NCBI GenBank assembly: GCA_009914755.4
Contig: CP086569.2
Coordinates: 12,224,001-12,288,000 of the forward strand
DNA length: 64,000 nt
Direction: 5' to 3'
Source: the human T2T-CHM13v2.0 reference genome, Homo sapiens
Notes under the pieces: model-generated
What the model was told of the DNA's origin: nothing
The model's database searches: none
Seen by the model: the letters and a program-made list of their open reading frames with translations, nothing else
Shown: one piece after another, positions 207-50,096 of the stretch
Numbering within the stretch: the stretch's first letter is position 1
Layout: every line of letters begins with the position of its first letter
Translations under genes and position numbers: made by a program

Positions 207-250
207 ATGGAATGGAATGGAATGGAATGGAATGGAATGGAATGGAATGG
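207..250 (+). repeat. Pure (GGAAT)~8 tract just downstream of the HOR junction landmark
   Basis: 'atgg(aatgg)8' then 'aaagg'. Same length in copies 2-6 (e.g. 5773-5816, 11313-11356), but only ~3 units in B-type copies (e.g. 39045-39062, 44620-44637). Confidence 0.8.
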
Positions 251-2570: not shown

Positions 2571-2640
2571 TAAGGAAAGGTCTCGAATCGAATTTATTCC
2601 AATAGAATGGAATCGAACGGAATGCAATACTGTTGAATCG
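2571..2640 (+). repeat. Diverged AT-rich sub-motif 'GGAAAGGTCTCGAAT..AATTTATTC.AATAGAATGGAATCGAA.GGAATGCAATA', recurring 3-5 times per HOR
   Basis: Related copies at 2281-2345, 2571-2640 and 4601-4660 in copy 1, and at the same offsets in every HOR copy (e.g. 7841, 8130, 10150). Weaker relatives at ~2727 and ~3409. These are the main non-GGAAT landmarks of the HOR. Confidence 0.6.
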
Positions 2641-5600: not shown

Positions 5601-5696
5601 TGAAAGTAATAGAATTAAATGGAGTACAAAGGAAAGATATCGAATGGAATGGATCGAAAAGAAATAGAATGGAATTGACAGGAATGGAATGGAATA

Positions 5697-27848: not shown

Positions 27849-30800
27849 GACTGGCGTGCAATGCAAACGAATGGAATGGAAACGAATGGAATGCAATTGA
27901 AAGGAATGGAGTAGAATAAATACTATGGAATGGAATGGAATGGAATGGAATGGAATGGAATGGAATGGAATGGAATGGAGGAGAAAGGAAAAGAATGGAT
28001 TGGAATGTCACCGAATGGAAAGATATGGAATGGAAAGGAATGGATACGAATGGAATGGAATAGAAAGGAATGGAAAGGTAAAGAATGGAATGGAATCGGA
28101 TAGAATGGAATGCAATATAATGGAGTCGAGTGGAAAATAATCGAGTAGAATGATATCGAATGGAATGGAATTTAATGAAATGGAATGGAATGGAATGGAA
28201 TGGACTCGAATGGAATGTACTCAAATGGATTAGAATAGAATGGAATGGAACTAAACGTAATGAACTCGAATGGAATGGACACAAATAGAATGGAAGAGAA
28301 AGGAATGGTATTGAATGGAATGTATTCGAATAGAATGGAATTCAATGGAATGCAACAGTGTGGCATGGAATCAAATGGAATGGAATCGAATGGAATGGAC
28401 CCGAGTGGAATGGACTCATAGAACAGCCTCGAATGTAATGGATTACAATTTATTAGATTCGAAAGGACTGAAATCGAATGGAATGTAATCAAATAGAACG
28501 GAATTGAATGCATGGAATGGCATAGAAAGAAATGCAATGGAATGGAATAGACTGGAATGGAATGGAATTGGATGGAATGTAATGAAATGTAATGGAAGGA
28601 ATGCCATGGAATGGAATGGAACGGAATGCAATGGGACGGTGTATAATGGAGTGCAATGGATTTCAGTGGAATGTAGTCAAAAGGAATGAAATAGAATGGA
28701 ATTCAATATAATGGAATGGCATCCAATGGCAAGGAATGGAGCGGACTCCAATGGAAACGACATGAAAGGACTATAATATAATGGAATGGCATTGAACGAA
28801 ATGGAATGCAATGGAGTTAAAAGGTAAAATATCGAATGGAAAAGAATTGAATGGACTCGAATGGAATATAATGGAATGGAATGGACTCGAATGGAATGTA
28901 CTAGAGTTGAATGGAATCGAATGGAATGGAAAACAATGGAAAGGAAAGGAAGGGAATTGAAAGTAAAGGAATAGAATGTAATGGAATCGGATGGAACGGA
29001 ATTGAATGGAATGGAAACTAAAGGAATAGAATAGAAAAGAATGGCATTGAATGGAATGGAAAGGAATGGAATCAGATGGAACAGAAAGGAATGGAATAGC
29101 ATCGAATGGAATGGCATCGAATGGTTTAGAATGGAATGTAATGGAATGGAATGGAAAGGAATGGAATGGACTCAAATGGAATGTACTCAAATGGAATAGA
29201 ATAGAATGGAATGGAAGTAAATATAATGGACTCGAGTGGAATGGATTGGAATAAATTGGAATTGAATGTATTGGATTCGAATGGAAAGGAGTGGAATGGA
29301 ATGGAATGGAATGGAATGGATTAGAATGGAATGGAACGAATTGGAATGTAATTGAATGGAGTCGAAAACAGTAGAAAGAAAAGAAGTTTAATCGAATGAT
29401 ATCGAATGGAATTGAATTGAATGTAGGCGAATGGAATGGACTGGAATGGAGTGGAGTGACATGTAATGGAATCGAAAGGAATGGAATCGAATGAAATGGA
29501 ATTGAATGGAATAGAAAGGAATAGAATGGAATGGAGTTTAATGGAAAGATATTAAAAGTAATGGAATGGAATTGAGTGGACACGAATGGAATGGCCTGGA
29601 ATGGAAAGGACTCGAATGAAATGGACGGCAATAGAATGGACTCGAATGGAATGGATTGGAGTGGAATGGTCTCTAATGGATTGGAAACGAATGGAATGGA
29701 AAGGAATAGAATGGAATGTAATCAAATGGAACGAAATGGAATGGAATGGATTCGACTGGAACAGAACTGAATGTAGTGGAATTGAGTGGAATGGAATGTA
29801 ATCGAATGGAATGGACACGAATGGAATAGAATGAAATGAAATGGCATGGAATGGAATGGAATGGAATGGAATGGAATGGAATGGAATGGAATGGAATGGA
29901 ATGGAATGGCATGGCATGGCATGGAATGGAATGGCATGGAATGAAATTGATTGGAATGGGATGGGCCCAAAAGTAATGGACTCACAGAAAAGGGACTGGA
30001 ATAGAATGAATTGGAAGAAACGGTCTCGAATATAATTTATTCGAATAGAATGATATTGAATGGAATGCGATAGTATGGAATGGTATTGAATAGAATGGAA
30101 TAGAATGGAATGGAATGGAACGGAATGGAGTGCATTTGAACGGACTCCAATGCAACAAATTGCAATATAATTGATTCAAATGGAATGGAATCGAATAGAA
30201 TGTAAAAAAATGAAATGGAAGGCAATGCAATGGAAAGGAATCGAATGAAATGGAATAAATGGGATGGAATCGAATGGAAAGGACGCGAATATAATGGACT
30301 GTTAAGGAAAGGTCACGAATCGAATTTATTCCAATAGAATGGAATCGAACGGAATGCAATACTATTGAATCGAATCGAATGGAATGGAATTGAATGGAAT
30401 GGACAGGAATGGAATGAACTGGAAGTGAATGGAAAAGAACGTAATGTAGTGCAATGTAATTTATTCAAATAGAATGGAATGCAATCGAATGGAATGGACT
30501 CGATTGGAATGGACTGGAGTGGAATGGACTGAAATGGAATGGAAAGGAATGTAAGGGAATGGACCGGAAAGCAAAGGAATCTACTGGAATAGAATCGAAC
30601 GGAACAGAAAGGAATGGAATGGAATGGAGTGGAATGGACTCGAATGGAATGTATTCGAATGCAGTGGACCGGAAAGGAATGGAATCCAATGGAATGGAAT
30701 TGAATGGAATCAAAAGGAATAGAAAGGAATAGAGTGTAATTGAATGATATCGAATGGAAGGAAATGGAATGAACTCGAATGGAATGCACTGGAATGGAAT

Positions 30801-33428
30801 GGACTCGATCAGAACGGACTGGAGAGGAATGTACACAAATGGAATGGAAACGAATGGAATGGAATGAAATGGAATGGAATGAAATGGAATTGAAAGGAAC
30901 GGAATCAAATGGAATGGAATGGATTGGAATAGAATGGATTCAAATAAAATAGAATCGATAGGAATGGTATTGAATGGAAGGGACTTGAATGGAATGGAAA
31001 TCAATGGAAGATATCGGAATCGAATGGCATCGAATGAAATGGAATGGAACGGAATGGAACGGACCCGAATGGAATGGAATGGACTGAAATGTAATAGACT
31101 GAAATGTAATGGACTCGAATGGAATCGACTGAAATATAATAGACTCGAAAGGAATGGCCTCCAGCGGAATTTATTTGAATAGAATTGAATCAAATGGAAT
31201 ACAAGAGTATTGAGTGGAACCGAATGGAATGGAATCGAATGGAATGGAACGGAATTCAATATAATGGAGTAGAATGGAATGCATTGGAAAGGAGCAGAGC
31301 GGAATCGAGTGGAATGGAATCGAGTGGAATGGAATCAAAGGGAACGAAATCGAATTGAATGGACTTGAATGGAATTGACTCGAAAGGAATGGACTGGAAC
31401 AAAAAGGAATCAAATGGACAGGAATGGAATGGAATGGACTCGAATGGAATGGAGTCAAATACAAACGCATCGAATGGAATGGATTCAAATGGAATGCAAT
31501 TGAATGGAATAGAAAGGAAGAGAATGGAATTGAGAGTAATGGAAAGATATCGATTGGAATGAAATGGAATGGAAAGGATTTGAATGGAAAGGAATGGACT
31601 CGAAAGAAATGGATTGGAATGGAATGGTCTCCAATGGAATGGACTGGAGTGGAATGGAATCGAATGGAATGAAAAGAATGGAACGGAATGGAACGGAAAG
31701 GAATAGAATGTTATGGAATCCGATTGGACAGAATGGAATGGAATGGACTTTCATGAAATGGAGTCGAATAGAGTGGCATCAAAAGGAATGGAATGGAATG
31801 GAGTGGACTCAAAAGGAACGGACTCGAAAGGAATGGAGTCGAAGCAAATTGAATCAAATGGATTGGAGTCGAACAGAATGGAATGGAATGGAATGAACTC
31901 GACTGGAGTAGAGAGGAATGTAAAGGAATAGAATGGAATGTAATCAAATGGATTGCAAGTGAATGGAATCAAAAATAATAGAAAGGAATGGAGTGTAAAG
32001 GGATGATATTGAATAAAATGGAATGGAATGGAAGTTAATGGAATGGAGTCGAAGGAATGGACAGGAATGTAATGGACTCCAATGGAATGGAATGGATGAA
32101 AATGGATTTGAACAGATTGGAATCGAATGGAATGGAATGCAATGGAATGGAATGGACTCGAATGGAGAAGAGACAAATGGAATGGAAACGAATTCAATGG
32201 AATTGAAAAGAATAGAATGGAATGGCCTGTAATGGTAAGATACTAAATGGAATGGAATTGAATGGAATGTAGTGGAATGGACCCAAATGTAATGCAGTCG
32301 AATGGAATATACTGAAATAGAATGGAATCGAAAGGAAAGGTCTCAAATGGAATTTATTCAATACAATGGAATCGAATGGAATGCAATAGAATGGAAAGGA
32401 ATCGAATGTAATGGAATCAAATAGAATGGACCGGAATGGAATGGACTGTCATAGAACGGACTGCAGTGTAATGGATTGAATTCTAATTCATTCAAATGGA
32501 ATGGAATGGAATGGAATGGAATCCAATGGAATGGATAGGATTGTACTGGAATGGAATAGCATGGAATGCAACGGAGTGGAATGGAGTTGAATGAAGTGGA
32601 ATGGAATCGATTGGAATGGAATCAAATGGAATGGACGGGAATGGAATGGACTGGAAGAGAACAGACTCGAATATAATGGATTGCAATGTAATTGATTCAA
32701 ATGGAATGGAATCGAATGGAATGTCATAAAATTGAAGGGATTGGAGTTCAATGCAATGGAATAGAATGGAATGCAAAGGAAAGGAAAGGCACGGAGTGAA
32801 ATCGAGTGTAATGGAATCGAATGGAATGAAATCGAATGGAATGGACTCAAAAGAAATGGCCGAGGGACAAAACGGAATCAAACTGATTGGAATCGAATGG
32901 AACGGAATGGAATGGAATGGTCTCCATTGGATGGGAGTAGAACGGATTGGAATGGAATGGAATGAAATAGAATGGAAAGGAATAGAATGGAATGGAAAGG
33001 AATGGAAGGTAATGGAAAGATATCGAACGGATTGGAAAGGAATGGAATGCACGCTAATGGAATGGAATGGAATTCAACAGAAACGAATGGAATGGACTGG
33101 AGTGAAATGGAGTCGAATGTAATTGACTGGAGAGGAATGGACTCGAAAGGAATGGACTCGAATAGAATGGACTGGAATGGATTGTACTCGAATGGAGTGG
33201 AAAGGAATAAAATGGATTCCACCAGATTGGAATGGAACAGAATGTAATGCAATGGAATGGAATGCAATGGAATGGCTCGAATGGAATGGAGTCGAATGCA
33301 ATGGAAGAGAAAGGAAAGGAATTGAATGGAATTGAAAGTAATAGAATTAAATGGAGGGCAAAGGAAAGATATGGAATGGAATGGATCGAAAAGAAATAGA
33401 ATGGAATGGACAGGAATGGAATGGAATA
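27849..33428 (+). repeat. HOR copy 6 (~5580 bp), subtype A2 with a transitional junction landmark
   Basis: Landmark at 27849 now reads 'caatgcaaacg' (B-like) but keeps 'taaatactatgg' (A-like); GGGCCC at ~29964; the longest pure (GGAAT)n tract in the window lies here (29846-29909). Confidence 0.85.
29846..29909 (+). repeat. Pure (GGAAT)~13 microsatellite-like tract; its length varies between HOR copies
   Basis: An uninterrupted 'atgg(aatgg)12' run flanked by 'ggcatgg' variants. The homologous tract is ~8 units in copy 1 (2133-2176), ~3 in copy 8 (~40.98 kb), ~7 in copy 9 (46527-46561), ~12 in copy 10 (52071-52131) and ~10 in copy 11 (57643-57691). Confidence 0.8.
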
Positions 33429-36400
33429 GACTGGCGTGCAATGCAAACGAATGGAATGGAAATGAATGCAATGGAATGGGAAGGAAAGGAGTAGAATAAA
33501 TATTATGGAATGGAATGGAATGGAATGGAATGGAATGGAATGGAATGGAATGGAGGAGAAAGGAAAAGAATGGATTGGAATGTCACCGAATGGAAAGATA
33601 TGGAATGGAAAGGAATGGATACGAATGGAATGGAATAGAAAGGAACGGAAAGGTAAAGAATGGAATGGAATCGGATAGAATGGAATGCAATATAATGGAG
33701 TCGAACGGAAAATAATCGAGTAGAATGATATCGAATGGAATGGAATTTAATGGAATGGAATGGAATGGACTCGAATGGAATGTACTCAAATGGATTAGAA
33801 GAGAATGGAATGGAACTAAACGTAATGAACTCGAATGGAATGGACACAAATAGAATGGAAGAGAAAGGAATGGTATTGAATGGAATGTATTCGAATAGAA
33901 CGGAATTCAATGGAATGCAACAGTGTGGCATGGAATCAAATGGAATGGAATCGAATGGAATGGACCCGAGTGGAATGGACTCATAGAACAGCCTCGAATG
34001 TAATGGATTACAATGTATTAGATTCGAAAGGACTGAAATCGAATGGAATGTAATCAAATAGAACGGAATTGAATGCATGGAATGGCATAGAAAGTAATGC
34101 AATGGAATGGAATAGACTGGAATGGAATGGAATCGGATGGAATGGAATGAAATGTAATGGAAGGAATGCCATGGAATGGAATGGAATGGAATGCAATGGG
34201 ATGGTGTATAATGGAGTGCAATGGATTTCAGGGGAATGTAGTGAAAAGGAATGAAATAGAATGGAATTCAATATAATGGAATGGCATCCAATGGCAAGGA
34301 ATGGAGCGGACTCCAATGGAAACGACATGAAAGGACTATAATATAATGGAATGGCATTGAACGAAATGGAATGCAATGGAGTTAAAAGGTAAAATATCGA
34401 ATGAAAAGAATTGAGTGGACTCGAATGGAATATAATGGAATGGAATGGACTTGAATGGAATGTAGTAGAGGTGAATGGAATCGCATGGAATGGAAAACAA
34501 TGGAAAGGAAAGGAAGGGAATTGAAAGTAAATGAATAGAATGGAATGGAATCGGATGGAACGGAATTGAATGGAATGGAAACTAAAGGAATAGAATAGAA
34601 AGGAATGGCATTGAATGGAATGGAAAGGAATGGAATCAGATGGAACAGAAAGGAATGGAATAGAATCGAATGGAATGGCATTGAATGGTCTGGAATGGAA
34701 TGTAATGGAATGGAATGGAAAGGAATGGAATGGACTCAAATGGAATGTACTCAAATGGAATTGAATAGAATGGAATGGAAGTAAATATAATGGACTCGAG
34801 TGGAATGGATTGGAATAAATTGGAATTGAATGTATTGGATTCGAATGGAAAGGAATGGAATAGAATGGAATGGAATGGAATGGAATGGAATGGATTAGAA
34901 TGGAATGGAACGAATTGGAATGTAATTGAATGGAGTCGAAAACAGTAGAAAGAAAAGAAGTTTAATCGAATGATATCGAATGGAATTGAATGGAATGTAG
35001 GCGAATGGAATGGACTGGAATGGAGTGGAGTGACATGTAATGGAATCGAAAGGAATGGAATCGAATGAAATGGAATTGAATGGAATAGAAAGGAATAGAA
35101 TGGAATGGAGTTTAATGGAAAGATATTAAAAGTAATGGAATGGAATTGAGTGGACACGAATGGAATGGACTGGAATGGAAAGGACTCGAATGAAATGGAC
35201 TGCATTAGAATGGACTCGAATGGAATGGATTGGAGTGGAATGGTCTCTAATGGATTGGAAACGAATGGAATGGAAAGGAATAGAATGGAATGTAATGAAA
35301 TGGAACGAAATGTAATGGAATGGATTAGACTGGAACAGAACTGAATGTAGTGGAATTGAGTGGAATGGAATGCAATCGAATGGAATGGACACGAATGGAA
35401 TAGAATGAAATGAAATGGCATGGAATGGAATGGAATGGAATGGAATGGAATGGAATGGAATGGAATGGCATGGCATGGAATGGAATGGAATGGCATGGAA
35501 TGAAATTGATTGGAATGGGATGGGCCCAAAAGTAATGGACTCACAGAAAAGGGACTCAAATAGAATGAATTGGAAAGAAACGGTCTCGAATGTAATTTAT
35601 TCGAATAGAATGATATTGAATGGAATGCGATAGAATGGAATGGTATTGAATAGAATGGAGTAGAATGGAATGGAATGGAACGGAATGGAGTGCATTTGAA
35701 CGGACTCCAATGCAACAAATTGCAATATAATTGGTTCAAATGGAATGGAATCGAATAGAATGTAAACAAATGAAATGGAAGGCAATGCAATGGAAAGGAA
35801 TCGAATGAAATGGAATAAATGGGATGGAATCGAATGGAAAGGACGCGAATATAATGGACTGTTAAGGAAAGGTCTCGAATCGAATTTATTCCAATAGAAT
35901 GGAATCGAACGGAATGCAATACTATTGAATCGAATCGAATGGAATGGAATTGAATGGAATGGACAGGAATGGAATGAACTGGAAGTGAATGGAAAAGAAC
36001 GTAATACAGTGCAATGTAATTTATTCAAATGGAATGGAATGCAATCGAATGGAATGGACTCGATTGGAATGGACTGGAGTGGAATGGACTGAAATGGAAT
36101 GGAAAGGAAAGTAATGGAATGGAACGGAAAGCAAAGGAATCTACTGGAATAGAATCGAACGGAACAGAAAGGAATGGAATGGAATGGAGTGGAATGGACT
36201 CGAATGGAATGTATTCGAATGTAATGGACCGGAAAGGAATGGAATCCAATGGAATGGAATTGAATGGAATCAAAAGGAATAGAAAGGAATGGAGGGTAGT
36301 TGAATGATATCGAATGGAAGGAAATGGAATGAACTCGAATGGAATGCACTGGAATGGAATGGACTCGATCAGAACGGACTGGAGAGGAATGTACATAAAT

Positions 36401-38968
36401 GGAATGGAAACGAATGGAATGGAATGAAACGGAATGGAATGAAATGGAATTGAAAGGAACGGAATCAAATGGAATGGAATGGATTGGAATAGAATGGATT
36501 CAAATAAAATAGAATCGATTGGAATGGTATTGAATGGAAAGGACTTGAATGGAATGGAAATCAATGGAAGATATTGGAATCGAATGGCATCGAATGAAAT
36601 GGAATGGAACGGAATGCAACAGACCCGAATGGAATGGAATGGACTGAAATGTAATGGACTCGAATGGAATCGACTGAAATATAATAGACTCGAAAGGAAT
36701 GGCCTCCAGCGGAATTTATTTGAATAGAATTGAATCAAATGGAATACAAGAGTTTTGAATGGAATCGAATGGAATGGAATCGAATGGAATGGAACGGAAT
36801 TCAATATAATGGAGTAGAATGGAATGCATTGGAAAGGAGCAGAATGGAATCGAGTGGAATGGAATCGAGTGGAATGGAATCAAAGGGAACGAAATCGAAT
36901 TGAATGGACTTGAATGGAATTGACTCGAAAGGAATGGACTGGAACAAAAAGGAATCAAATGGACAGGAATGGAATGGAATGGACTCGAATGGAATGGAGT
37001 CAAATACAAACGCATCGAATGGAATGGATTCAAATGGAATGCAATTGAATGGAATAGAAAGGAAGAGAATGGAATTGAGAGTAATGGAAAGATATCGATT
37101 GGAATGAAATGGAATGGAAAGGAATTGAATGGAAAGGAATGGACTCGAAAGAAATGGATTGGAATGGAATGGTCTCCAATGGAATGGACTGGGGTGGAAT
37201 GGAATCGAATGGAATGAAAAGAATGGAACGGAATGGAACGGAAAGGAATAGAAAGTTATGGAATCCGATGGGACAGAATGGAATGGAATGGACTTTCATG
37301 AAATGGAGTCGAATAGAGAGGCATCAAAAGGAATGGAATGGAATGGAGTGGACTGAAAAGGAATGGACTCAAAAGGAATGGAGTCGAAGCAAATTGAATC
37401 AAATGGATTGGAGTCGAACAGTACGGAATGGAATGGAATGAACTCGACTGGAGTAGAGAGGAATGTAAAGGAATAGAATGGAATGTAATCAAATGGATTG
37501 CAAGCGAATGGAATCAAAAATAATAGAAAGGAATGGAGTGTAAAGGGATGATATTGAATAAAATGGAATGGAATGGAATTTAATGGAATGGAGTCGAAGG
37601 AATGGACAGGAATGTAATGGATTCCAATGGAATGGAATGGATGAAAATGGATTTGAACAGATTGGTATCGAACGGAATGGAATGCAGTGGAATGGAATGG
37701 ACTCGAATGGAGAAGAGACAAATGGAATGGAAACGAATTCAATGTAATTGAAAAGAATAGAATGGAATGGCGTGTAATGGTAAGATACTAAATGGAATGG
37801 AATTGAATGGAATGTAATGGAATGGAACCAAATGTAATGCACTCAAATGGAATATACTCAAATAGAATGGAATCGAAAGGAAAGGTCTCCAATGGAATTT
37901 ATTCAATACAATGGAATCAAAAGAAATGCAATAGAAAGGAAAGGAGTCGAATGTAATGGAATCAAATAGTATGGACCAGAATGGAATGCACTGCCATAGA
38001 ACGGACTGCAGTGTAATGGATTGAATTCTAATTCATTCAAATGGAATGGAATTGAATGGAATGGAATCCAATGGAATGGATAGGATTGTACTGGAATGGA
38101 ATAGCATGGAATGCAACGGAGTGGAATGGAGTTGAATGAAGTGGAATGGAATCGATTGGAATGGAATCAAATGGAATGGACGGGAATGGAATGGACTGGA
38201 AGAGAACAGACTCGAATATAATGGATTGCAATGTAATTGATTCAAATGGAATGGAATCGAATGGAATGTCATAAAATTGAAGGGATTGGAGTTCAATGCA
38301 ATGGAATAGAATGGAATGCAAAGGAAAGGAAAGGCACGGAGTGAAATCGAGTGCAATGGAATCGAATGGAATGAAATGGAATGGAATGGACTCAAAAGAA
38401 ATGGACGAGGGACAAAACGGAATCAAACTGATTGGAATGGAATGGAAGGGAATGGAATGGAATGGTCTCCATTGGATGGGAGTAGAACGGATTGGAATGG
38501 AATGGAATGAAATGGAATGGAAAGGAATAGAATGGAATGGAATGGAATGGAAGGTAATGGAAAGATATCAAACGGATTGGAAAGGAATGGAATGGACCCT
38601 AATGGAATGGAATGGAATTCAACAGAAAGGAATGGAATGGACTGGAGTGAAATGGAGTCGAATGTAATTGAGTGGAGAGGAATGGACTCGAAAGGAATGG
38701 ACTCGAATAGAATGGACTGGAATGGATTGTACTCGAATGGAGTGGAAAGGAATAAAATGGATTCCACCAGATTGGAATGGAACAGAATGTAATGGAATGG
38801 AATGGAATGCAATGGAATGGCTCGAATGCAATGGAAGAGAAAGGAAAGGAATTGAATGGTATTGAAAGTAATAGAATTAAATGGAGTGCAAAGGAAAGAT
38901 ATCGAACGGAATGGATCGAAAAGAAATAGAACGGAATGGACCGGAATGGAATGGAATTGAATGGAATA
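33429..38968 (+). repeat. HOR copy 7 (~5540 bp), chimeric: A2-type 5' part, B-type 3' part
   Basis: GGGCCC present at ~35521 (A trait). From ~37.24 kb onward the B-type diagnostic variants appear ('ggaatagaaagttatggaatccgatgggacag', 'caaatagtatggaccag'; ORFs 37109.., 38296.. match the B-type ORFs 48222.., 43871..). Confidence 0.8.
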
Positions 38969-41900
38969 GACTGGCGTGCAATGCAAACGAATGGAATGGA
39001 AACGAATGGAATGGAATGGAAAGGAATGGAGTAGAATAAATACAATGGAATGGAATGGAATGGAGGCGAAAGGAAAAGAATGGATTGGAGTGTCACCGAA
39101 TGGAAAGATATGGAATGGAAAGGAATGGATACGAATGGAATGGAATAGAGAGGAACGGAAAGGTAAAGAATGGAATGGAGTCGGATAGAATGGAATGCAA
39201 TGTAATGGAGTCAAATGGAAAATAATCGAGTAGAATGATATCGAACGGAATGGAATTTAATAGAATGGAATGGAATGGAATGGACTCGAATGGAATGTAC
39301 TCAAATGGATTAGAATAGAATGGAGTGGAAATAAACGTAGTGAACTCGAATGGAATGGACACTAATAGAATGGAAGAGAAAGGAATGGTATTGAATGGAA
39401 TTTATTCGAATAGAATGGAATTCAACGGAATGCAACAGTGTGGCATGGAATCAAATGGAATGGAATCGAATGGCATGGACCCGAGTGGAATGGACTCACA
39501 TAGAAGAGCCTCGAATGTAATGGATTACAATGTATTAGATTCGAAAGGACTGAAATCGAATGGAATGTAATCAAATAGAACGGAACTGAATGCGTGGAAT
39601 GGCATAGAAAGTAATACAAAGGAATGGAATAGACTGGAAAGGAATGGAATCGGATGGAATGCAATGAAATGTAATGGAAGGAATGCCATGCAATGGAATG
39701 GAATGCAATGCAATGGGACGGTGTATAATGGAGTGCAATGGATTTCAGTGGAATGTAGTCAAAAGGAATGAAATAGAATGGAATTCAATATAATGGAATG
39801 GCATCCAATGGCAAGGGATGGAGCGGAGTCCAATGGAAACATGAAAGGAATATAATATAATGGAATGGCATTGAACGAAATGGAATGCAATGGAGTTAAA
39901 AGGTAAAATATCGAATGGAAAAGAATTGTATGGACTCGAATGGAATATAATGAAATGGAATGGACTCGAATGGAATGTACTAGAGTTAAATGGAATCGAA
40001 AGGAATTTAAAACAATGGAAAGGAAAGGAAGGGAATTGAAAGGAACGGAATAGAATGGAATGGAATCGGATGGAACGGAATTGAATGGAATGGAAACTAA
40101 AGGAATAGAATAGAAAGGAATGCCATTGAATGGAATGGAATGGAATGGAATGGAATAAGATGGAACAGAATGGAATGGAATAGAATTGAATGGAATGGCA
40201 TCGAATGGATTGGAATGGAATGTAATGGAATGGAATGGAAAGGAATGGAATGGACTCGAATGGAATGTACTGAAATGGAGTAGAATAGAATGGAATGGAA
40301 GTAAATATAATGGATTCGAGTGGAATGGATTGGAATAAATTGGAATTGAATGTATTGGATTCGAATGGAAAGGAATGGAATGGAATGGAATGGAATGGAA
40401 TGGAATGGAATGGAATGGAATGGATTCGAATGGAATGGAACGAATTGGAATGTAATTGAATGGAGTCGAAAACAGTAGAAAGAAAAGAAGTTTAATCGAA
40501 TGATATAGAATGGAATTGAATGGAATGTGCGTGAATGGAATGGACTGGAATGGAATGGAGTGACATGTAATGGAATCGAAAGGAATGGAATCGAATGAAA
40601 TGGAATTGAATGGATTAGAAAGGAATAGAATGGAATGGAGTTTAATGGAAAGATATTAAAAGTAATGGAATGGAATTGAGTGGACACAAATGGAATGGAC
40701 TGGAATGGAAAGGACTCGAATGAAATGGAGCGCATTAGAATGGACTCGAAAGGAATGGATTGGAGTGGAATGGTCTCGAATGGATTGGAAACGAATGTAA
40801 TGGAAAGGAATAGAATGGAATGTAATCAACTGGAAAGAAATGTAATTGAATGGGTTCAACTGGAACAGAGTTGAATGGAGTGGAATTGAATGGAATGGAA
40901 TGCAATCGAATGGAATGCACACGAATGGAATAGAATGAAATGAAATGGCATAGAATTTAGTGGAATGGAATGAAATGGAATGGAATTGAATGGAATGGAA
41001 TGGAATGGCATGGAATGGCATGGAATGGTATGGAATGAAATGGATTGGAATGGGATGTTCCCAAAAGTAATGGACTCAAATAAAAGGGACTCAAATAGAA
41101 TGAATTGGAAAGAAATGGTCTCGAATGTAATTTATTCGAATAGAATGATATTGAATGGAATGCAATAATATGGAATGGTATCGAATAGAATGGAATAGAA
41201 TGGAATGGAATGGAACGGTATGGAGTGCATTTGAACGGACTCCAATGCAATAAATTGCAATATAATTGATTCAAATGGAATGGAATCGAATAGAATGTAA
41301 ACAAATGGAATGGAAGGCAATGCAATGGAAAGGAATCGAATGAAATGGAATAAATGGGATGGAATCGAATGGAAAGGACGCGAATGTAATGGACTGTTAA
41401 GGAAAGGCCTCGAATCGAATTTATTCCGATAGAATGGAATCGAATGGAATGCAATACTATTGAATCGAATCAAATGGAATGGAATTGAATGGAATGGACA
41501 GGAATGGAATGAACTGGAAGTGAATGGACAAGAACGTAATATAGTGCAATGTAATTTATTCAAATGGAATGGAATGCAATCGAATGGAATGGACTCGATT
41601 GGAATGGACTGGAGTGGAATGGACTGAAATGGAATGGAAACGAATGTAATGGAAAGGAACGGAATGCAAAGGAATCTACTGTAATAGAAACGAACGGAAC
41701 AGAAAGGAATGGAATGGAATGGAGTGGAATGGACTCGAATGGAATGTATTCGAATGTAATGGACCGGAAAGGAATGGAATCCAATGGAATGGAATTGAAT
41801 GCAATCAAAAGGAATAGAAAGGAATAGAGTGTAATTGAATGATATCGAATGGAAGGGAATGGAATGAAGTCGAATGGAATGCACTGGAATGGAATGGACA

Positions 41901-44544
41901 CGATCAGAACGGACTGGAGAGGAATGTACACAAATGGAATGGAAACGAATGGAATGGAATGAAATGGAATGGAATGAAATGGAATTGAAAGGAACGGAAT
42001 GAAATGGAATGGAATGGAATAGAATGGATTGGAATAGAATGGATTCAAATAAAATAGAATCGATTGGAATGGTATTGAATGGAAGGGACTTGAATGGAAT
42101 GGAAAGCAATGGAAGATATTCGAATTGAATGGCATCGAATGAAATGGAATGGAACGCAATGGAACGGACCCGAATGGAATGGAATGGACTCAAATGTAAT
42201 GGACTCGAATGGAATTGACTGAAATATAATAGACTCGAATGGAATGGCCTCGAGCGGAATTTATTTGAATAGAATGGAATCAAATGGAATACAATAGTAT
42301 TGAATGGAATAGAATGGAATGGAATCGAATGGAATGTAATCCAATGGAATGGAACGGAATTCAATATAATGCAGTAGAATGGAATGCATTGGAAAGCAGC
42401 AGAGTGGAATCGAGTGGAATGCAATCGAGTGGAATGGAATCAAAGGGAACGAAATCGAATTGAATGGACTTGAATGGAATTGACTCGAAAGGAATTGACT
42501 CGAAAGGAATGGACTGGAACAAAAAGGAATCAAATGGACAGGAATGGAATGGAATGGACTCGAATGGAATGGAGTCAAATGCAAACGCATCGAATGGAAT
42601 GGATTCAAATGGAATGCAATTGAATGGAATAGAAAGGAAGAGAATGGAATTGAGAGTAATGGAAAGATATCGATTGGAATGAAATGGAATGGAAAGGAAT
42701 TGAATGGAAAGGAATGGACTCGAAAGAAATGGATTAGAATGGAATGGTCTCCAATGGAATGGACTGGAGTGGAATGGAATCGAATGGAATGAAAAGAATG
42801 GAACGGAATGGAACGGAAAGGCATAGAATGTTATGGAATCCGATTGGACAGAATGGAATGGAATGGACTTTCATGAAATGGAGTCGAATAGAGTGGCATC
42901 AAAAGGAATGGAATGGAATGGAGTGGACTCAAAAGGAACGGACTCGAAAGGAATGGAGTCGAAGCAAATTGAATCAAATGGATTGGAGTCGAACAGAATG
43001 GAATGGAATGGAATGAACTCGACTGGAGTAGAGAGGAATGTAAAGGAATAGAATGGAATGTAATCAAATGGATTGCAAGTGAATGGAATCAAAAATAATA
43101 GAAAGGAATGGAGTGTAAAGGGATGATATTGAATAAAATGGAATGGAATGGAATTTAATGGAATGGAGTCGAAGGAATGGACAGGAATGTAATGGACTCC
43201 AATGGAATGGAATGGATGAAAATGGATTTGAACACATTGGAATCGAACGGAATGGAATGCAATGGAATGGAATGGACTCGACTGGAGAAGAGACAAATGG
43301 AATGGAAACGAATTCAATGGAATTGAAAAGAATAGAATGGAATGGCGTGTAATGGTAAGATACTAAATGGAATGGAATGGAATGGAATGTAGTGGAATGG
43401 ACCCAAATGTAATGCAGTCGAATGGAATATACTGAAATAGAATGGAATCGAAAGGAAAGGTCTCAAATGGAATTTATTCAATACAATGGAATCGAATGGA
43501 ATGCAATAGAATGGAAAGGAATCGAATGTAATGGAATCAAATACAATGGACCAGAATGGAATGGACTGTCATAGAACGGACTGCAGTGTAATGGATTGAA
43601 TTCTAATTCATTCAAATGGAATGGAATGGAATGGAATGGAATCCAATGGAATGGATAGGATTGTACTGGAATGGAATAGCATGGAATGCAACGGAGTGGA
43701 ATGGAGTTGAATGAAGTGGAATGGAATCGATTGGAATGGAATCAAATGGAATGGACGGGAATGGAATGGACTGGAAGAGAACAGACTCGAATATAATGGA
43801 TTGCAATGTAATTGATTCAAATGGAATGGAATCGAATGGAATGTCATAAAATTGAAGGGATTGGAGTTCAATGCAATGGAATAGAATGGAATGCAAAGGA
43901 AAGAAAAGGCAAGGAGTGAAATCGAGTGCAATGGAATCGAATGGAATGAAATCGAATGGAATGGACTCAAAAGAAATGGACGAGGGACAAAACGGAATCG
44001 AACTGATTGGAATGGAACGGAAGGGAATGGAATGGAATGGTCTCCATTGGATGGGAGTAGAACGGATTGGAATGGAATGGAATGAAATGGAATGGAAAGG
44101 AATAGAATGGAATGGAATGGAATGGAAGGTAATGGAAAGATATCTAACGGATTGGAAAGGAATGGAATGGACCCTAATGGAATGGAATGGAATTCAACAG
44201 AAACGAATGGAATGGACTGGAGTGAAATGGAGTCGAATGTAATTGAGTGGAGAGGAATGGACTCGAAAGGAATGGACTCGAATAGAATGGACTGGAATGG
44301 ATTGTACTCGAATGGAGTGGAAAGGAATAAAATGGATTCCACCAGATTGGAATGGAACAGAATGTAATGGAATGGAATGGAATGCAATGGAATGGCTCGA
44401 ATGCAATGGAAGAGAAAGGAAAGGAATTGAATTGTATTGGAAGTAATAGAATTAAATGGAGTGCAAAGGAAAGATATCGAATGGAACGGATCGAAAAGAA
44501 ATAGAATGGAATGGACAGCAATGGAATGGAATAGAATGGAATAG
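38969..44544 (+). repeat. HOR copy 8 (~5576 bp), subtype B
   Basis: Landmark 'gactggcgtgcaatgcaaacg ... taaatacaatgg' at 38969; GGGCCC replaced by 'gggatgttcccaaaag' (~41051); +10 bp ('aattgaatgg') before the junction landmark. Confidence 0.85.
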
Positions 44545-47500
44545 ACTGGCGTGCAATGCAAACGAATGGAATGGAAACGAATGGAATGGAATGGAAAGGA
44601 ATGGAGTAGAATAAATACAATGGAATGGAATGGAATGGAGGCGAAAGGAAAAGAATGGATTGGAGTGTCACCGAATGGAAAGATATGGAATGGAAAGGAA
44701 TGGATACGAATGGAATGGAATAGAAAGGAACGGAAAGGTAAAGAATGGAATGGAATCGGATAGAATGGAATGCAATGTAATGGAGTCGAATGGAAAATAA
44801 TCGAGTAGAATGATATCGAACGGAATGGAATTTAATAGAATGGAATGGAATGGAATGGACTCGAATGGAATGTACTCAAATGGATTAGAATAGAATGGAG
44901 TGGAAATAAACGTAGTGAACTCGAATGGAATGGACACTAATAGAATGGAAGAGAAAGGAATGGTATTGAATGGAATTTATTCGAATAGAATGGAATTCAA
45001 CGGAATGCAACAGTGTGGCATGGAATCAAATGGAATGGAATCGAATGGCATGGACCCGAGTGGAATGGACTCACATAGAAGAGCCTCGAATGTAATGGGT
45101 TACAATGTATTAGATTCGAAAGGACTGAAATCGAATGGTATGTAATCAAATAGAACGGAACTGAATGCGTGGAATGGCATAGAAAGTAATGCAATGGAAT
45201 GGAATAGACTGGAAAGGAATGGAATCGGATGGAATGTAATGAAATATAATGGAAGGAATGCCATGCAATGGAATGGAATGCAATGCAATGGGACGGTGTA
45301 TAATGGAGTGCAATGGATTTCAGTGGAATGTAGTCAAAAGGAATGAAATAGAATGGAATTCAATATAATGGAATGGCATCCAATGGCAAGGGATGGAGCG
45401 GACTCCAATGGAAACGACATGAAAGGAATATAATATAATGGAATGGCATTGAACGAAATGGAATGCAATGGAGTTAAAAGGTAAAATATCGAATGGAAAA
45501 GAATTGTATGGACTCGAATGGAATATAATGAAATGGAATGGACTCGAATGGAATGTACTAGAGTTGAATGGAATCGAAAGGAATTTAAAACAATGGAAAG
45601 GAAAGGAAGGGAATTGAAAGGAACGGAATAGAATGGAACGGAATCGGATGGAACGGAATTGAATGGAATGGAAACTAAAGGAATAGAATAGAAAGGAATG
45701 CCATTGAATGGAATGGAATGGAATAAGATGGAACAGAATGGAATGGAATAGAATTGAATGGAATGGCATCGAATGGATTGGAATGGAATGTAATGGAATG
45801 GAATGGAAAGGAACGGAATGGACTCGAATGGAATGTACTGAAATGGAATAGAATAGAATGGAATGGAAGTAAATATAATGGACTCGAGTGGAATGGATTG
45901 GAATAAATTGGAATTGAATGTATTGGATTCGAATGGAAAGGAATGGAATGGAATGGAATGGAATGGAATGGAATGGAATGGAATGGAATGGAATGGATTC
46001 GAATGGAATGGAACGAATTGGAATGTAATTGAATGGAGTCGAAAACAGTAGAAAGAAAAGAAGTTTAATCGAATGATATAGAATGGAATTGAATGGAATG
46101 TACGCGAATGGAATGGACTGGAATGGAATGGAGTGACATGTAATGGAATCGAAAGGAATGGAATCGAATGAAATGGAATTGAATGGAATAGAAAGGAATA
46201 GAATGGAATGGAGTTTAATGGAAAGATATTAAAAGTAATGGAATGGAATTGAGTGGACACAAATGGAATGGACTGGAATGGAAAGGACTCGAATGAAATG
46301 GAGCGCATTAGAATGGACTCGAATGGAATGGATTGGAGTGGAATGGTCTCGAATGGATTGGAAACGAATGTAATGGAAAGGAATAGAATGGAATGTAATC
46401 AACTGGAAAGAAATGTAATGGAATGGGTTCAACTGGAACAGAATTGAATGGAGTGGAATTGAATGGAATGGAATGCAATCGAATGGAATGCACACGAATG
46501 GAATAGAATGAAATGAAAGGGCATAGAATGGAATGGAATGGAATGGAATGGAATGGAATGGTATGGAATGGAATGGAATGGTATGGAATGAAATGGATTG
46601 GAATGGGATGTTCCCAAAAGTAATGGACTCAAATAAAAGGGACTCAAATAGAATGAATTGGAAAGAAACGGTCTCGAATGTAATTTATTCGAATAGAATG
46701 ATATTGAATGGAATGCAATAATAATAAATGGTATCGAATAGAATGGAATAGAATGGAATGGAATGGAACGGAATGGAGTGCATTTGAACGGACTCCAATG
46801 CAACAAATTGCAATATAATTGATTCAAATGGAATGGAATCGAATAGAATGTAAACAAATGGAATGGAAGGCAATGCAATTGAAAGGAATCGAATGAAATG
46901 GAATAAATGGGATGGAATCGAATGGAAAGGACGCGAATATAATGGACTGTTAAGGAAAGGCCTCGAATCGAATTTATTCCAATAGAATGGAATCGAATGG
47001 AATGCAATACTATTGAATCGAATCAAATGGAATGGAATTGAATGGAATGGACAGGAATGGAATGAACTGGAAATGAATGGACAAGAACGTAATATAGTGC
47101 AATGTAATTTATTCAAATGGAATGGAATGCAATCGAATGGATTGGACTCGATTGGAATGGACTGGAGTGGAATGGACTGAAATGGAATGGAAACGAATGT
47201 AATGGAATGGAACGGAAAGCAAAGGAATCTACTGTAATAGAATCGAACGGAACAGAAAGGAATGGAATGGAATGGAGTGGAATGGACTCGAATGGAATGT
47301 ATTCGAATGTAATGGACCGGAAAGGAATGGAATCCAATGGAATGGAATTGAATGGAATCAAAAGGAATAGAAAGGAATAGAGTGTAATTGAATGATATCG
47401 AATGGAAGGGAATGGAATGAAGTCGAATGGAATGCACTGGAATGGAATGGACACGATCAGAACGGACTGGAGAGGAATGTACACAAATGGAATGGAAACG

Positions 47501-50096
47501 AATGGAATGGAATGAAAAGGAATGGAATGAAATGGAATTGAAAGGAACGGAATGAAATGGAATGGAATGGAATGGAATGGATTGGAATAGAATGGATTCA
47601 AATAAAATACAATCGATTGGAATGGTATTGAATGGAAGGGACTTGAATGGAATGGAAAGCAATGGAAGATATTCGAATTGAATGGCATCGAATGAAATGG
47701 AATGGAACGCAATGGAACGGACCCGAATGGAATGGAATGGACTCAAATGTAATGGACTCGAATGGAATCGACTGAAATATAATAGACTCGAATGGAATGG
47801 CCTGGAGCGGAATTTATTTGAATAGAATGGAATCAAATGGAATACAATAGTATTGAATGGAATAGAATGGAATGGAATCGAATTTAATGTAATCCAATGG
47901 AATGGAACGGAATTCAATATAATGGAGTAGAATGGAATGCATTGGAAAGCAGCAGAGCGGAATCGAGTGGAATGGAATCGAGTGGAATGGAATCAAAGGG
48001 AACGAAATCGAATTGAATGGACTTGAATGGAATTGACTCGAAAGGAATTGACTCGAAAGGAATGGACTGGAACAAAAAGGAATCAAATGGACAGGAATGG
48101 AATGGAATGGACTCGAATGGAATGGAGTCAAATGCAAACGCATCGAATGGAATGGATTCAAATGGAATGCAATTGAATGGAATAGAAAGGAAGAGAATGG
48201 AATTGAGAGTAATGGAAATATATGGATTGGAATGAAATGGAATGGAAAGGAATTGAATGGAAAGGAATGGACTCGAAAGAAATGGATTGGAATGGAATGG
48301 TCTCCAACGGAATGGACTGGAGTGGAATGGAATCGAATGGAATGAAAAGAATGGAACGGAATGGAACTGAAAGGAATAGAAAGTTATGGAATCCGATGGG
48401 ACAGAATGGAATGGAATGGACTTTCATGAAATGGAGTCGAATAGAGTGGCATCAAAAGGAATGGAATGGAATGGAGTGGACTCAAAAGGAATGGACTCAA
48501 AAGGAATGGAGTCGAACCAAATTGAATCAAATGGATTGGAGTCGAACAGAACGGAATGGAATGGAATGAACTCGACTGGAGTAGAGAGGAATATAAAGGA
48601 ATAGAATGGAATGTAATCAAATGGATTGCAAGCGAATGGAATCAAAAATAATAGAAAGGAATGGAGTGTAAAGGGATGATATTGAATAAAATGGAATGGA
48701 ATGGAATTTAATGGAATGGAGTCGAAGGAATGGACAGGAATGTAATGGACTCCAATGGAATGGAATGGATGAAAATGGATTTGAACAGATTGGTATCGAA
48801 CGGAATGGAATGCAGTGGAATGGAATGGACTCGAATGGAGAAGAGACAAATGGAATGGAAACGAATTCAATGGAATTGAAAAGAATAGAATGGAATGGCG
48901 TGTAATGGTAAGATACTAAATGGAATGGAATTGAATGGAATGTAATGGAATGAAACCAAATGTAATGCACTCAAATGGAATATACTCAAATAGAATGGAA
49001 TCGAAAGGAAAGGTCTCCAATGGAATTTATTCAATACAATGGAATCAAAAGAAATGCAATAGAAAGAAAAGGAATCGAATGTAATGGAATCAAATAGTAT
49101 GGACCAGAATGGAATGGACTGCCATAGAACGGACTGCAGTGTAATGGATTGAATTCTAATTCATTCAAATGGAATGGAATTGAATGGAATGGAATCCAAT
49201 GGAATGGATAGGATTGTACTGGAATGGAATAGCATGGAATGCAACGGAGTGGAATGGAGTTGAATGAAGTGGAATGGAATCGATTGGAATGGAATCAAAT
49301 GGAATGGACGGGAATGGAATGGACTGGAAGAGAACAGACTCGAATATAATGGATTGCAATGTAATTGATTCAAATGGAATGGAATCGAATGGAATGTAAT
49401 AAAATTGAAGGGATTGGAGTTCAATGCAATGGAATAGAATGGAATGCAAAGGAAAGAAAAGGCACGGAGTGAAATCGAGTGCAATGGAATCGAATGGAAT
49501 GAAATCGAATGGAATGGACTCAAAAGAAATGGACGAGGGACAAAACGGAATCGAACTGATTGGAATGGAACGGAAGGGAATGGAATGGAATGGTCTCCAT
49601 TGGATGGGAGTAGAACGGATTGGAATGGAATGGAATGAAATGGAATGGAAAGGAATTGAATGGAATGGAATGGAATGGAAGGTAATGGAAAGATATCAAA
49701 CGGATTGGAAAGGAATGGAATGGACCCTAATGGAATGGAATGGAATTCAACAGAAACGAACGGAATGGACTGGAGTGAAATGGAGTCGAATGTAATTGAG
49801 TGGAGAGGAATGGACTCGAAAGGAATGGACTCGAATAGAATGGACTGGAATGGATTGTACTCGAATGGAGTGGAAAGGAATAAAATGGATTCCACCAGAT
49901 TGGAATGGAACAGAATGTAATGGAATGGAATGGAATGCAATGGAATGGCTCGAATGCAATGGAAGAGAAAGGAAAGGAATTGAATGGTATTGAAAGTAAT
50001 AGAATTAAATGGAGTGCAAAGGAATGATATCGAATGGAATGGATCGAAAAGAAATAGAATGGAATGGACAGGAATGGAATGGAATAGAATGGAATA
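44545..50096 (+). repeat. HOR copy 9 (~5552 bp), subtype B
   Basis: Landmark at 44545 preceded by an extra 'aatagaatgg'; no GGGCCC (~46608 'gggatgttccc'); ORF landmarks 44551.., 44900.. equal 38976.., 39325.. shifted by one period. Confidence 0.85.
45941..46000 (+). repeat. Pure (GGAAT)~12 tract, a second length-variable site within the HOR
   Basis: 'ggaaagg(aatgg)n attcgaatgg'. About 12 units here, 5 in copy 1 (1571-1610), ~10 in copy 8 (40371-40430) and ~11 in copy 11 (57051-57115). Confidence 0.75.

What the first reader, a model, noticed from the sequence alone, without database searches (positions are those of the whole stretch)
36960..37260. Abrupt switch between two HOR subtypes inside copy 7, a candidate unequal-crossover or conversion breakpoint
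Upstream of ~36.96 kb, copy 7 carries A2-type diagnostic variants: GGGCCC at 35521, single 'gaattgactcgaaagg', 'ggaatagaatgttatgg'-type sequence, and the 36716 and 36904 ORFs identical to copies 5 and 6. From ~37.24 kb to the end of the window every diagnostic site is B-type: 'ggaatagaaagttatggaatccgatgggacag', 'caaatagtatggaccag', no GGGCCC, and a +10 bp junction. The switch therefore lies within about 300 bp. The marker phase changes in the middle of a copy rather than at a HOR junction, so this looks like a recombination or gene-conversion junction between two homogenised HOR families, not gradual drift.
Basis: seen in the sequence. Interest (0 to 1): 0.6.

Follow-up and report, generated by a model that had tools for sequence, protein, structure and literature searches.

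The report
Mosaic boundary between two satellite-repeat variants
In a human (GGAAT)n satellite made of 5.55-kb units, the window crosses the border between two locally homogenised unit variants; the border is a real recombination mosaic with three switch points, not one, which is the expected footprint of homologous exchange in tandem arrays and not a new kind of feature.

Summary
The switch is real. The window holds 11 full and 2 partial copies of a ~5.55-kb unit of a (GGAAT)n satellite. Copies 1-6 form family A, copies 9-12 form family B, and the two differ by 3-4%. A max-chi-square permutation test gave 0 of 10,000, and alignment-free k-mer painting agrees.

Copy 8 is B-type to 42397, A2-like (closest to copies 5 and 6) from 42829 to 43845, and B-type again from 43904. 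That patch is a run of 20 consecutive A sites, reached in 0 of 100,000 permutations. The boundary therefore has three junctions. The first two sit at the same position in the unit, exactly one unit (5575 bp) apart, and bracket one complete B-type unit.

Polarising with related contigs from human-associated metagenomes shows that both mosaic blocks share derived states with their source families. This is exchange, not drift.

My favoured history, which is inferred, is an older A2|B junction in copy 8 plus a templated one-unit B insertion. The rival is a crossover junction plus a separate ~1-kb conversion patch.

Hybrid units between repeat haplotypes are already known, so interest is low.

The parts
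1..37006 (+). Family-A domain: the tail of a preceding copy (1-120), copies 1-6, and the A-type head of copy 7 (33419-37006). It splits into sub-variants A1 (copies 1-3) and A2 (copies 4-6).
   Evidence: Pairwise differences and marker strings. The first 120 nt are identical to the end of copy 1. Copy 7's head has 21 of 22 A-derived and 1 of 47 B-derived states. The A2-specific 15-bp deletion lies at 36915/36916 and the A2-specific A at 37006.
37007..37253 (+). It is a 247-bp stretch almost identical in all copies.
   Evidence: Last A2-derived marker at 37006 and first B-derived marker at 37254. Max-chi-square 72.9, 0 of 10,000 permutations. K-mer painting shows the last A-specific 21-mer ending at 37111 and the first B-specific one starting at 37250. 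Partial markers at 37096 (not the copies 9-11 state) and 37124 (not the A2 state) hint at 37097-37123, but neither is fixed.
37254..42397 (+). B-type block made of the tail of copy 7 and the head of copy 8. With its junction intervals it spans exactly one unit (5575 bp).
   Evidence: Copy 7 tail: 16 of 17 B-derived states in columns 3973-5040, plus the B-type 14-bp deletion and the +10 bp at 38949-38958. Copy 8 head: 45 of 47 B-derived states. The distance 37254 to 42829 is 5575 bp.
42398..42828 (+). Junction 2: the interval in copy 8 that contains the B-to-A2 switch. It is at the same unit phase as junction 1, one unit downstream.
   Evidence: Last B-derived marker at 42397 and first A-state marker among the fixed markers at 42829. 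Copy 8 still has the non-A2 states at 42476-42490 (15 bp present), 42581 (G) and 42699 (A), which narrows the interval to 42582-42828 or 42700-42828.
42829..43845 (+). A2-like patch inside the B domain (copy 8), closest to copies 5 and 6.
   Evidence: It forms the larger part of a run of 20 consecutive A-type fixed markers (42671-43545), 0 of 100,000 permutations. It differs by 8 SNVs from copies 5 and 6, against 30-34 from copies 9-11. It shares derived states with A (42939, 42964), with A2 (column 4561 and 43845) and with copies 5/6 only (43569, 43628), and has 0 of 17 B-derived states.
43846..43903 (+). Junction 3: the interval in copy 8 that contains the A2-to-B switch. The conservative interval from fixed markers is 43546-43928.
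   Evidence: Last A2-derived state at 43845 (column 4989). First B-derived state at 43904 (column 5048, shared with copies 9 and 10) and the first fixed B marker at 43929. It directly follows the longest uninterrupted identity tract between the A2 and B consensus sequences (217 bp, columns 4772-4989).
43904..64000 (+). Family-B domain: the end of copy 8, copies 9-11 and the partial copy 12.
   Evidence: Marker strings are all B. Pairwise differences within the family are 74-134 columns per unit.

Best explanation
What is shown. The window crosses the border between two locally homogenised variants (A, then B) of a 5.55-kb nested tandem repeat of a human (GGAAT)n classical satellite. The border was made by homologous exchange between units that are 96-97% identical. 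It is a mosaic of A... | one full B unit | ~1 kb of A2 | B..., with three junctions, and the first two are at the same unit phase.

Favoured history (inferred).
- An older simple A2|B junction existed at unit column ~4989-5048 (window 43846-43903). It arose by unequal crossover between misaligned units within the longest stretch of A2/B identity.
- Later, a break at unit column ~3725-3973 in that hybrid unit was repaired from an out-of-register B-type template. This added exactly one B unit, either by a synthesis-dependent strand-annealing type expansion or by integration of an excised one-unit circle, which gives the same product.
- This single insertion creates both the copy-7 A-to-B junction (37007-37253) and the copy-8 B-to-A junction (42582-42828) at the same phase.

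No function is implied. This is a scar of array turnover.

The confidence of 0.85 is for homologous exchange as the origin of the mosaic. For the specific one-unit insertion history it is about 0.45-0.5.
For: - Two families, with contiguous marker blocks and sharp change-points in copies 7 and 8. The result does not depend on the alignment.
- Polarisation with related human-metagenome contigs. Copy 7's head has 21/22 A-derived states and its tail 16/17 B-derived states. Copy 8's head has 45/47 B-derived states. Copy 8's patch has 0/17 B-derived states plus six derived states of A, A2 or copies 5/6.
- Copies 7 and 8 carry opposite family states at 88 of 102 markers.
- Junctions 1 and 2 fall in the same 247-column interval, one unit apart.
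- Relative divergence fits copy 7's head and copy 8's patch having been one ancestral unit. Against copy 6, copy 7's head shows 76 SNVs where copy 4 shows 79, and copy 8's patch shows 8 where copy 4 shows 10.
- All three junction intervals lie in marker-poor stretches. Columns 3541-3973 and 4689-5073 together make 14% of the unit and include the longest (217 bp) and fourth-longest (130 bp) A2/B identity tracts.
- Unequal crossover and conversion are the accepted homogenising processes in human satellite arrays, and a hybrid unit between two repeat haplotypes is already described for DXZ1 (PMC9549924; PMC4022460; bioRxiv 10.1101/2021.07.12.452052).
Against: - Only one haplotype is available, so the order, direction and number of events are inferred.
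- The same-phase coincidence is weaker evidence if exchange simply prefers this identity tract.
- Both copies 7 and 8 carry the non-A2 base at column 3843 (37124 / 42699). The one-insertion model therefore requires an ancestral A2-like unit that lacked that A2 variant.
- Copy 7's head lacks 7 of 8 variants specific to copies 5/6 in columns 700-2150, while copy 8's patch has both copies-5/6-specific variants.
- Copy 7's tail has a few A-like single sites (37389, 38270, 38425, 38443) that need extra micro-events or recurrent mutation.
- The B unit between the junctions is not a recent copy of any B unit in the window. It differs by 12-16 and 51-59 SNVs from copies 9-11, against 5-8 and 38-45 among those copies.
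Confidence: 0.85

Rival explanations
1. Two independent events. An unequal crossover (or the end of a long conversion tract) made the A2|B junction in copy 7. Separately, a ~1.0-1.3-kb gene-conversion tract copied from an A2 unit like copies 5/6 overwrote the homologous part of the neighbouring B unit (copy 8). The shared phase of the two left-hand junctions reflects a local preference for a long identity tract. This is a sub-model of the homologous-exchange explanation, competing with the one-unit insertion history.
For: - Copy 8's patch is flanked by B on both sides, which is the classic conversion-patch pattern.
- The patch carries both derived variants specific to copies 5/6 and is as close to copies 5 and 6 (8 SNVs) as they are to each other (6).
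- If A2 carried T at column 3843, the two junction intervals are adjacent rather than identical: columns 3725-3843 in copy 7 and 3843-3973 in copy 8.
- Family A itself shows interleaved variant patterns, suggesting frequent short exchanges.
Against: - It needs two breakpoints to fall within about 250 bp of the same phase in a 5.6-kb unit, roughly 5-10% under uniform placement.
- It needs the same number of events as the one-insertion model but does not explain the coincidence.
Confidence: 0.35
2. Assembly or polishing artefact. The mosaic, especially the complementary ~1-kb swap between neighbouring copies 7 and 8, comes from a mis-join or from consensus built on mis-placed reads in a near-identical tandem array.
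For: - Satellite arrays are error-prone to assemble.
- Copies 7 and 8 look like a reciprocal swap over columns 3973-4689.
- None of 25 unrelated human-metagenome contigs shows the copy-7 hybrid haplotype.
Against: - A and B differ by 3-4%, about one marker per 55 bp, which long accurate reads resolve easily.
- Both mosaic copies carry their own private substitutions at the usual density (48 and 49 singleton bases), as expected for real, aged units.
- There are no Ns or length anomalies.
- The metagenome contigs are collapsed short-read consensus sequences and would not show a single-copy junction anyway.
Confidence: 0.06
3. No exchange. The pattern reflects gradual divergence, with copies 7 and 8 simply retaining ancestral states in parts of the unit.
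For: In columns 3973-5040, 17 of 19 A/B markers are derived on the B side, so most of copy 8's 'A' states there are ancestral states.
Against: - Copy 8 has 45/47 B-derived states in its first 3.5 kb and 0/17 in the next ~1 kb. It also shares six derived states with A, A2 or copies 5/6 there.
- Copy 7 shows the converse.
- Mutation alone cannot produce blocks like this: permutation gave 0/10,000 and 0/100,000.
Confidence: 0.02

Closest known systems
HOR-haplotype (HOR-hap) domains and hybrid units in human satellite arrays (Altemose et al., bioRxiv 10.1101/2021.07.12.452052; Miga and Alexandrov, PMC9549924)
   Same: Neighbouring units cluster into locally homogenised sequence variants occupying contiguous domains. 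A unit that is a hybrid between two haplotypes is reported for the X alpha-satellite array (PMC9549924, figure legend read).
   Different: The satellite here is a (GGAAT)n-derived array with a 5.55-kb unit (a 'nested tandem repeat' in Altemose's terms), not alpha satellite. The boundary is resolved to three junctions at base level, including a same-phase pair one unit apart.
Unequal crossover model of tandem-repeat evolution (Smith 1976, cited in PMC4022460 and PMC9549924) and mitotic unequal sister-chromatid exchange
   Same: Out-of-register homologous exchange between units produces hybrid units and changes in copy number. Junction 3, and in the rival reading junction 1, fit a simple crossover junction.
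   Different: A single sister-chromatid exchange creates only one new junction. It cannot by itself place a full B unit upstream of an A2 remnant (reasoned from the marker order).
Gene conversion patches in tandem arrays and multigene families
   Same: Copy 8 shows a ~1-kb tract of donor type flanked by recipient type, and its closest relatives lie 2-3 units away.
   Different: Non-reciprocity and direction cannot be shown in one haplotype. The left end coincides in phase with the junction in the preceding copy, which plain conversion does not predict.
Expansion of tandem repeats during double-strand-break repair by synthesis-dependent strand annealing (Paques, Leung and Haber 1998, yeast; from my own knowledge, not checked here), or reintegration of satellite-derived extrachromosomal circles
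   Same: Both predict insertion of a whole number of units, with both new junctions at the phase of the break. That matches one full B unit bracketed by same-phase junctions 5575 bp apart.
   Different: These processes were demonstrated experimentally in yeast minisatellite constructs and inferred for circles. Nothing here shows a break, a circle or the timing.
Human satellite 3 (HSat3) / classical satellite III
   Same: Pentamer GGAAT/CATTC base repeat, strong strand asymmetry, and multi-kb periodicity as in DYZ1 (3.6 kb). A unit-specific 32-mer recurs in human gut and skin metagenome contigs, i.e. human DNA.
   Different: The decamer usually quoted for satellite III (CAACCCGAGT / its complement) is absent (0 hits), and TaqI sites are frequent (968). 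The subfamily and chromosome were not determined.

Membership tests
Human (CATTC)n-derived classical satellite (HSat2/HSat3) | Sequence built from diverged GGAAT/CATTC pentamers | tested here: met
   Tandem Repeats Finder gives period 10 (AATGGAATGG) and period 15 units over the whole window. Exact GGAAT covers 30% of bases.
Human (CATTC)n-derived classical satellite (HSat2/HSat3) | Human origin | tested here: met
   A unit-specific 32-mer gave 25 contigs, several of them named as human gut or human skin metagenomes. Those compared were 95-97% identical over kilobases. There were no hits in 185,579 bacterial and archaeal genomes. This is indirect: contamination by human DNA is inferred.
HSat3 in the classical sense (satellite III) | Interspersed decamer CAACCCGAGT / A(T/C)TCGGGTTG (definition recalled from my own knowledge) | tested here: not met
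   0 occurrences of TCGGGTTG or CAACCCGA on either strand. Some HSat3 subfamilies may lack it. Subfamily marker sets were not available.
HSat2 | GATGAT-containing 23/26-bp subunits (recalled from my own knowledge) | tested here: not met
   0 occurrences of ATCATCGAATGGAAT or CATCATCGAATGGA.
Nested tandem repeat / higher-order repeat array | Multi-kb unit repeated head to tail, with much higher identity between units than within a unit | tested here: met
   Period 5525-5580 bp, with 749 20-mers occurring once per unit. Units are 93-99% identical by column, against ~70% for offsets within a unit.
Recombinant (hybrid) unit between two repeat haplotypes | Contiguous blocks of family-diagnostic states with significant change-points | tested here: met
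   Copy 7: max-chi-square 72.9, 0/10,000. Copy 8: run of 20, 0/100,000. K-mer painting agrees.
Recombinant (hybrid) unit between two repeat haplotypes | Blocks share derived (not just ancestral) states with their source family | tested here: met
   Outgroup polarisation. For copy 8's patch the support is six derived sites.
Unequal crossover product | Change of copy number, or existence of the reciprocal product or parental arrangement | not testable with these tools
   This needs other haplotypes or assemblies of the same array. No human genome collection is available here.
Gene conversion tract | Donor-type patch flanked on both sides by recipient type, with the donor retained elsewhere | tested here: met
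   Copy 8 reads B | A2 | B, with copies 5 and 6 as closest relatives (8 SNVs in 1067 columns). Non-reciprocity is not testable.
One-unit templated insertion (SDSA-type expansion or circle integration) | Two junctions at the same unit phase, exactly one unit apart, bracketing a unit of foreign type | tested here: inconclusive
   Both junction intervals include columns 3725-3973, and the spacing is 5575 bp. The resolution is only 247 bp, and one partial marker (column 3843) fits only if the ancestral unit lacked the A2 variant.

The most novel reading that the evidence does not exclude
The same-phase junction pair (37007-37253 and 42582-42828) is the scar of one event that inserted exactly one B-type unit into an A2/B hybrid unit. 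The event would be an SDSA-type repair expansion or reintegration of an excised one-unit circle. If so, this is a base-resolution example of the elementary step by which human classical satellite arrays grow, and of exchange junctions targeting the longest identity tracts.
Probability: 0.4. Interest if true: 0.4.

Novelty: new member of a known kind. Interest (0 to 1): 0.22.

Why it matters
The locus gives a clean, statistically solid example of how two homogenised variants of a human pericentromeric satellite meet. The meeting point is a compound mosaic, not a single break, and its junctions sit in the most conserved stretches of the unit. With population-scale complete assemblies, sites like this could be used in three ways:
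- to count and date exchange events;
- to separate crossover from conversion;
- to measure how much uninterrupted identity exchange needs in heterochromatin.

On its own it confirms textbook expectations (unequal exchange and conversion) and does not change them.

Tried and rejected
- ORFs in 36.6-37.4 kb are only pentamer-repeat translations (MEWNG...), so they were dropped as evidence.
- The scan of bacterial and archaeal genomes for the unit-specific 32-mer found nothing.
- Metagenome contigs were tested as independent witnesses of the copy-7 hybrid haplotype, and none carries it. They are collapsed short-read consensus sequences that mix A and B k-mers. They cannot validate or refute a single-copy junction and were used only as an outgroup.
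- Single-event sister-chromatid unequal crossover histories were worked through by hand from the marker order. None reproduces A | B-unit | A2-patch | B from a simple A|B array, so I rejected one crossover as a complete explanation.
- A two-unit (11.1-kb) super-period in the B domain is supported only by two pentamer indels and no SNVs, so it is not claimed.
- The literature search for the chromosome or subfamily of a 5.5-kb HSat unit gave no assignment.
- No inversion, transposon or composition change accompanies the boundary.
Full report
**What the window is.** The whole 64-kb window is a diverged (GGAAT)n satellite with constant strand asymmetry and no inversion or foreign insert. Distances between repeated 24-mers peak at 5525-5580 bp. 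A 20-mer that occurs once per unit gives anchors at 121, 5687, 11227, 16768, 22314, 27839, 33419, 38959, 44534, 50087, 55652 and 61212. That defines 11 complete copies, a 120-bp tail of a preceding copy and a partial copy 12.

A unit-specific 32-mer was absent from 185,579 bacterial and archaeal genomes. It was present in 25 metagenome contigs, several named as human gut or skin metagenomes, and those compared were 95-97% identical over kilobases. The satellite is therefore human. It lacks the decamer usually quoted for satellite III and the GATGAT words of HSat2, and it is rich in TaqI sites. I call it HSat3-like and leave the subfamily open. In the terminology of Altemose et al. (bioRxiv 10.1101/2021.07.12.452052) a multi-kb unit of this kind is a 'nested tandem repeat', not a higher-order repeat.

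**Checking the observation.** I aligned the 12 copies with MAFFT (5698 columns).
- Copies 1-6 differ from each other at 82-205 columns, and copies 8-11 at 74-134. The two groups differ at 325-390 columns. Copy 7 is intermediate, at 182-307 from every other copy.
- 102 single-base columns are fixed for one state in copies 1-6 (family A) and another in copies 9-12 (family B).
- Every other copy reads almost purely as its own family in a leave-one-out test. Copy 7 reads A at 72 of the first 75 markers and B at 22 of the last 27.
- A single-breakpoint max-chi-square statistic of 72.9 was never approached in 10,000 permutations, where the maximum was 21.7.
- Painting with 21-mers specific to copies 1-6 or to copies 9-12 does not depend on the alignment. 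It puts the last A-specific word at 37111 and the first B-specific word at 37250.
- Reading the alignment directly, copy 7 shares with copies 4-6 the 15-bp deletion at 36915/36916 and the A at 37006. It shares with copies 9-11 the A at 37254 and the G at 37270.

Copy 8 (38959-44533) is not uniformly B.
- It reads B at 70 of its first 73 markers, up to 42397.
- It then reads A at 20 consecutive markers (42671-43545), and B again from 43929. A run of 20 was never reached in 100,000 permutations, where the maximum was 9.
- In columns 3973-5040 copy 8 differs from copies 5 and 6 by 8 SNVs each and from copies 9-11 by 30-34. Copy 7 shows the opposite, 32 against 12-16.
- Sub-family markers narrow the right-hand end of the patch to 43846-43903.

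The statement that every diagnostic site is B-type from 37.24 kb to the end of the window is therefore wrong. The boundary has three junctions: A to B at 37007-37253, B to A2 at 42398-42828 (probably 42582-42828), and A2 to B at 43846-43903. Copies 7 and 8 carry opposite family states at 88 of the 102 markers.

**Exchange or retained ancestry?** I used the metagenome contigs as an outgroup.
- Of the 102 markers, 69 are derived on the B side and 26 on the A side.
- Copy 7's head carries 21 of 22 A-derived states and 1 of 47 B-derived states. Its tail carries 16 of 17 B-derived states in columns 3973-5040.
- Copy 8's head carries 45 of 47 B-derived states. Its patch carries none of 17.
- Most 'A' states in the patch are ancestral. 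Even so, the patch shares six derived states with family A (42939, 42964), with A2 (column 4561 and 43845) and with copies 5/6 alone (43569, 43628).

Blocks like this cannot arise by mutation alone, so drift is excluded.

**How it most likely arose.** Read along the chromosome, the order is: A domain, then one full B-type unit (37254 to about 42.4-42.8 kb), then ~1 kb of A2, then the B domain. Junctions 1 and 2 occupy the same 247-column interval of the unit (columns 3725-3973) and are 5575 bp apart.

A single unequal sister-chromatid exchange makes only one new junction. Worked through from the marker order, it cannot place a B unit upstream of an A2 remnant. Two histories of two events each remain.

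- *History (i): older junction plus a one-unit insertion.*
  - An older simple A2|B junction lay at column ~5000.
  - One B unit was later inserted at column ~3725-3973 of that hybrid unit.
  - The insertion came either from repair synthesis on an out-of-register B template that re-annealed at the phase of the break, or from integration of an excised one-unit circle.
- *History (ii): crossover junction plus a separate conversion patch.*
  - A crossover junction formed in copy 7.
  - A separate ~1.0-1.3-kb conversion patch in copy 8 was copied from a donor like copies 5/6.

History (i) explains the shared phase without further assumptions. It also fits the relative divergences. Against copy 6, copy 7's head is as far as copy 4 is (76 vs 79 SNVs), and copy 8's patch likewise (8 vs 10).

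History (ii) needs a coincidence of roughly 5-10% under uniform placement, unless this stretch is a preferred exchange site. That preference is plausible, because all three junction intervals lie in the most marker-poor parts of the unit. They also adjoin or contain the longest (217 bp) and fourth-longest (130 bp) uninterrupted A2/B identity tracts.

Points against (i):
- Both copies carry the non-A2 base at column 3843.
- Copy 7's head lacks most variants specific to copies 5/6, whereas copy 8's patch has both.

I favour (i) only modestly. Homologous exchange as the general process is secure; the specific pathway is inferred.

**Other rivals.** An assembly or polishing artefact cannot be excluded without reads, but it is unlikely.
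- The families differ at about one site per 55 bp.
- Both mosaic copies carry a normal load of private substitutions, 48 and 49 singleton bases.
- The sequence has no Ns and no length anomalies.

**Comparison with what is known.** Locally homogenised repeat haplotypes occupying contiguous domains are described genome-wide for human satellites (bioRxiv 10.1101/2021.07.12.452052). Conversion and mitotic unequal crossover are the accepted mechanisms, and a hybrid unit between two haplotypes is explicitly noted for the X alpha-satellite array (PMC9549924; PMC4022460). This locus is a further instance in a (GGAAT)n satellite. Its only unusual aspect is the same-phase junction pair bracketing one unit. 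I rate it as a new member of a known kind, with low interest (0.22). The most novel reading not excluded is that the pair records a single one-unit templated insertion (probability about 0.4, interest about 0.4 if true).

**Limits.**
- Breakpoints cannot be narrowed below the marker spacing.
- The outgroup is a set of collapsed short-read contigs.
- The chromosome and subfamily are undetermined.
- Only 6.5 A units and 4.5 B units are visible, so the size of the two domains is unknown.

Noticed in passing
L009, L014, L018, L021, L022 (e.g. L009:2123-2154 and 3496-3527): In five human-metagenome contigs the unit-specific 32-mer occurs twice, exactly 1373 bp apart, whereas in the window it occurs once per 5.55-kb unit. 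This suggests a structural variant of the unit (a 1.37-kb internal duplication or a shorter period) elsewhere in human arrays, or a short-read assembly artefact.
   Followed up: partly
window 45940-45944, 57055-57059 (copies 9, 11) and 40953-40957, 52076-52080, 63196-63200 (copies 8, 10, 12): Two pentamer indels alternate between odd and even B copies, hinting at an 11.1-kb two-unit super-period. No SNV shows the same alternation, so recurrent slippage is equally possible.
   Followed up: partly
window 1-33418 (copies 1-6), alignment columns 0-3000 versus 3620-5642: Markers separating A1 (copies 1-3) from A2 (copies 4-6) lie almost entirely in columns 3620-5642. Markers uniting copies 1-2 against the rest lie in columns 149-2974. 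The two parts of the unit seem to have different genealogies within family A, with the change near the same phase as junctions 1 and 2.
   Followed up: partly
window 37389, 37939, 38270, 38425, 38443, 38897 (copy 7 tail); 35313 and 36520 (copy 7 head): Isolated sites disagree with the surrounding block. Examples are an A-derived G at 37389 and an A2-derived C at 38270 inside the B-type tail, and a B-type T at 35313 inside the A-type head. 36520 is simply an ancestral state. They could be micro-conversions or recurrent mutations.
   Followed up: partly
L001-L025: Metagenome assemblies, several labelled human gut or human skin, contain kilobase contigs of this human satellite (host DNA left in the data). 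They mix A- and B-specific 21-mers within 100-bp bins, so they are collapsed consensus sequences of many units.
   Followed up: yes
whole window: The satellite has no copy of the satellite-III decamer (TCGGGTTG/CAACCCGA) and no HSat2-type GATGAT words, but it has 968 TaqI and 992 HinfI sites. The subfamily and chromosome are unassigned.
   Followed up: partly
window 36025-37742, both strands: Long ORFs (up to 259 aa) on both strands translate to MEWNG.../IPFHS... repeats. They are by-products of the pentamer repeat and not evidence of genes.
   Followed up: yes
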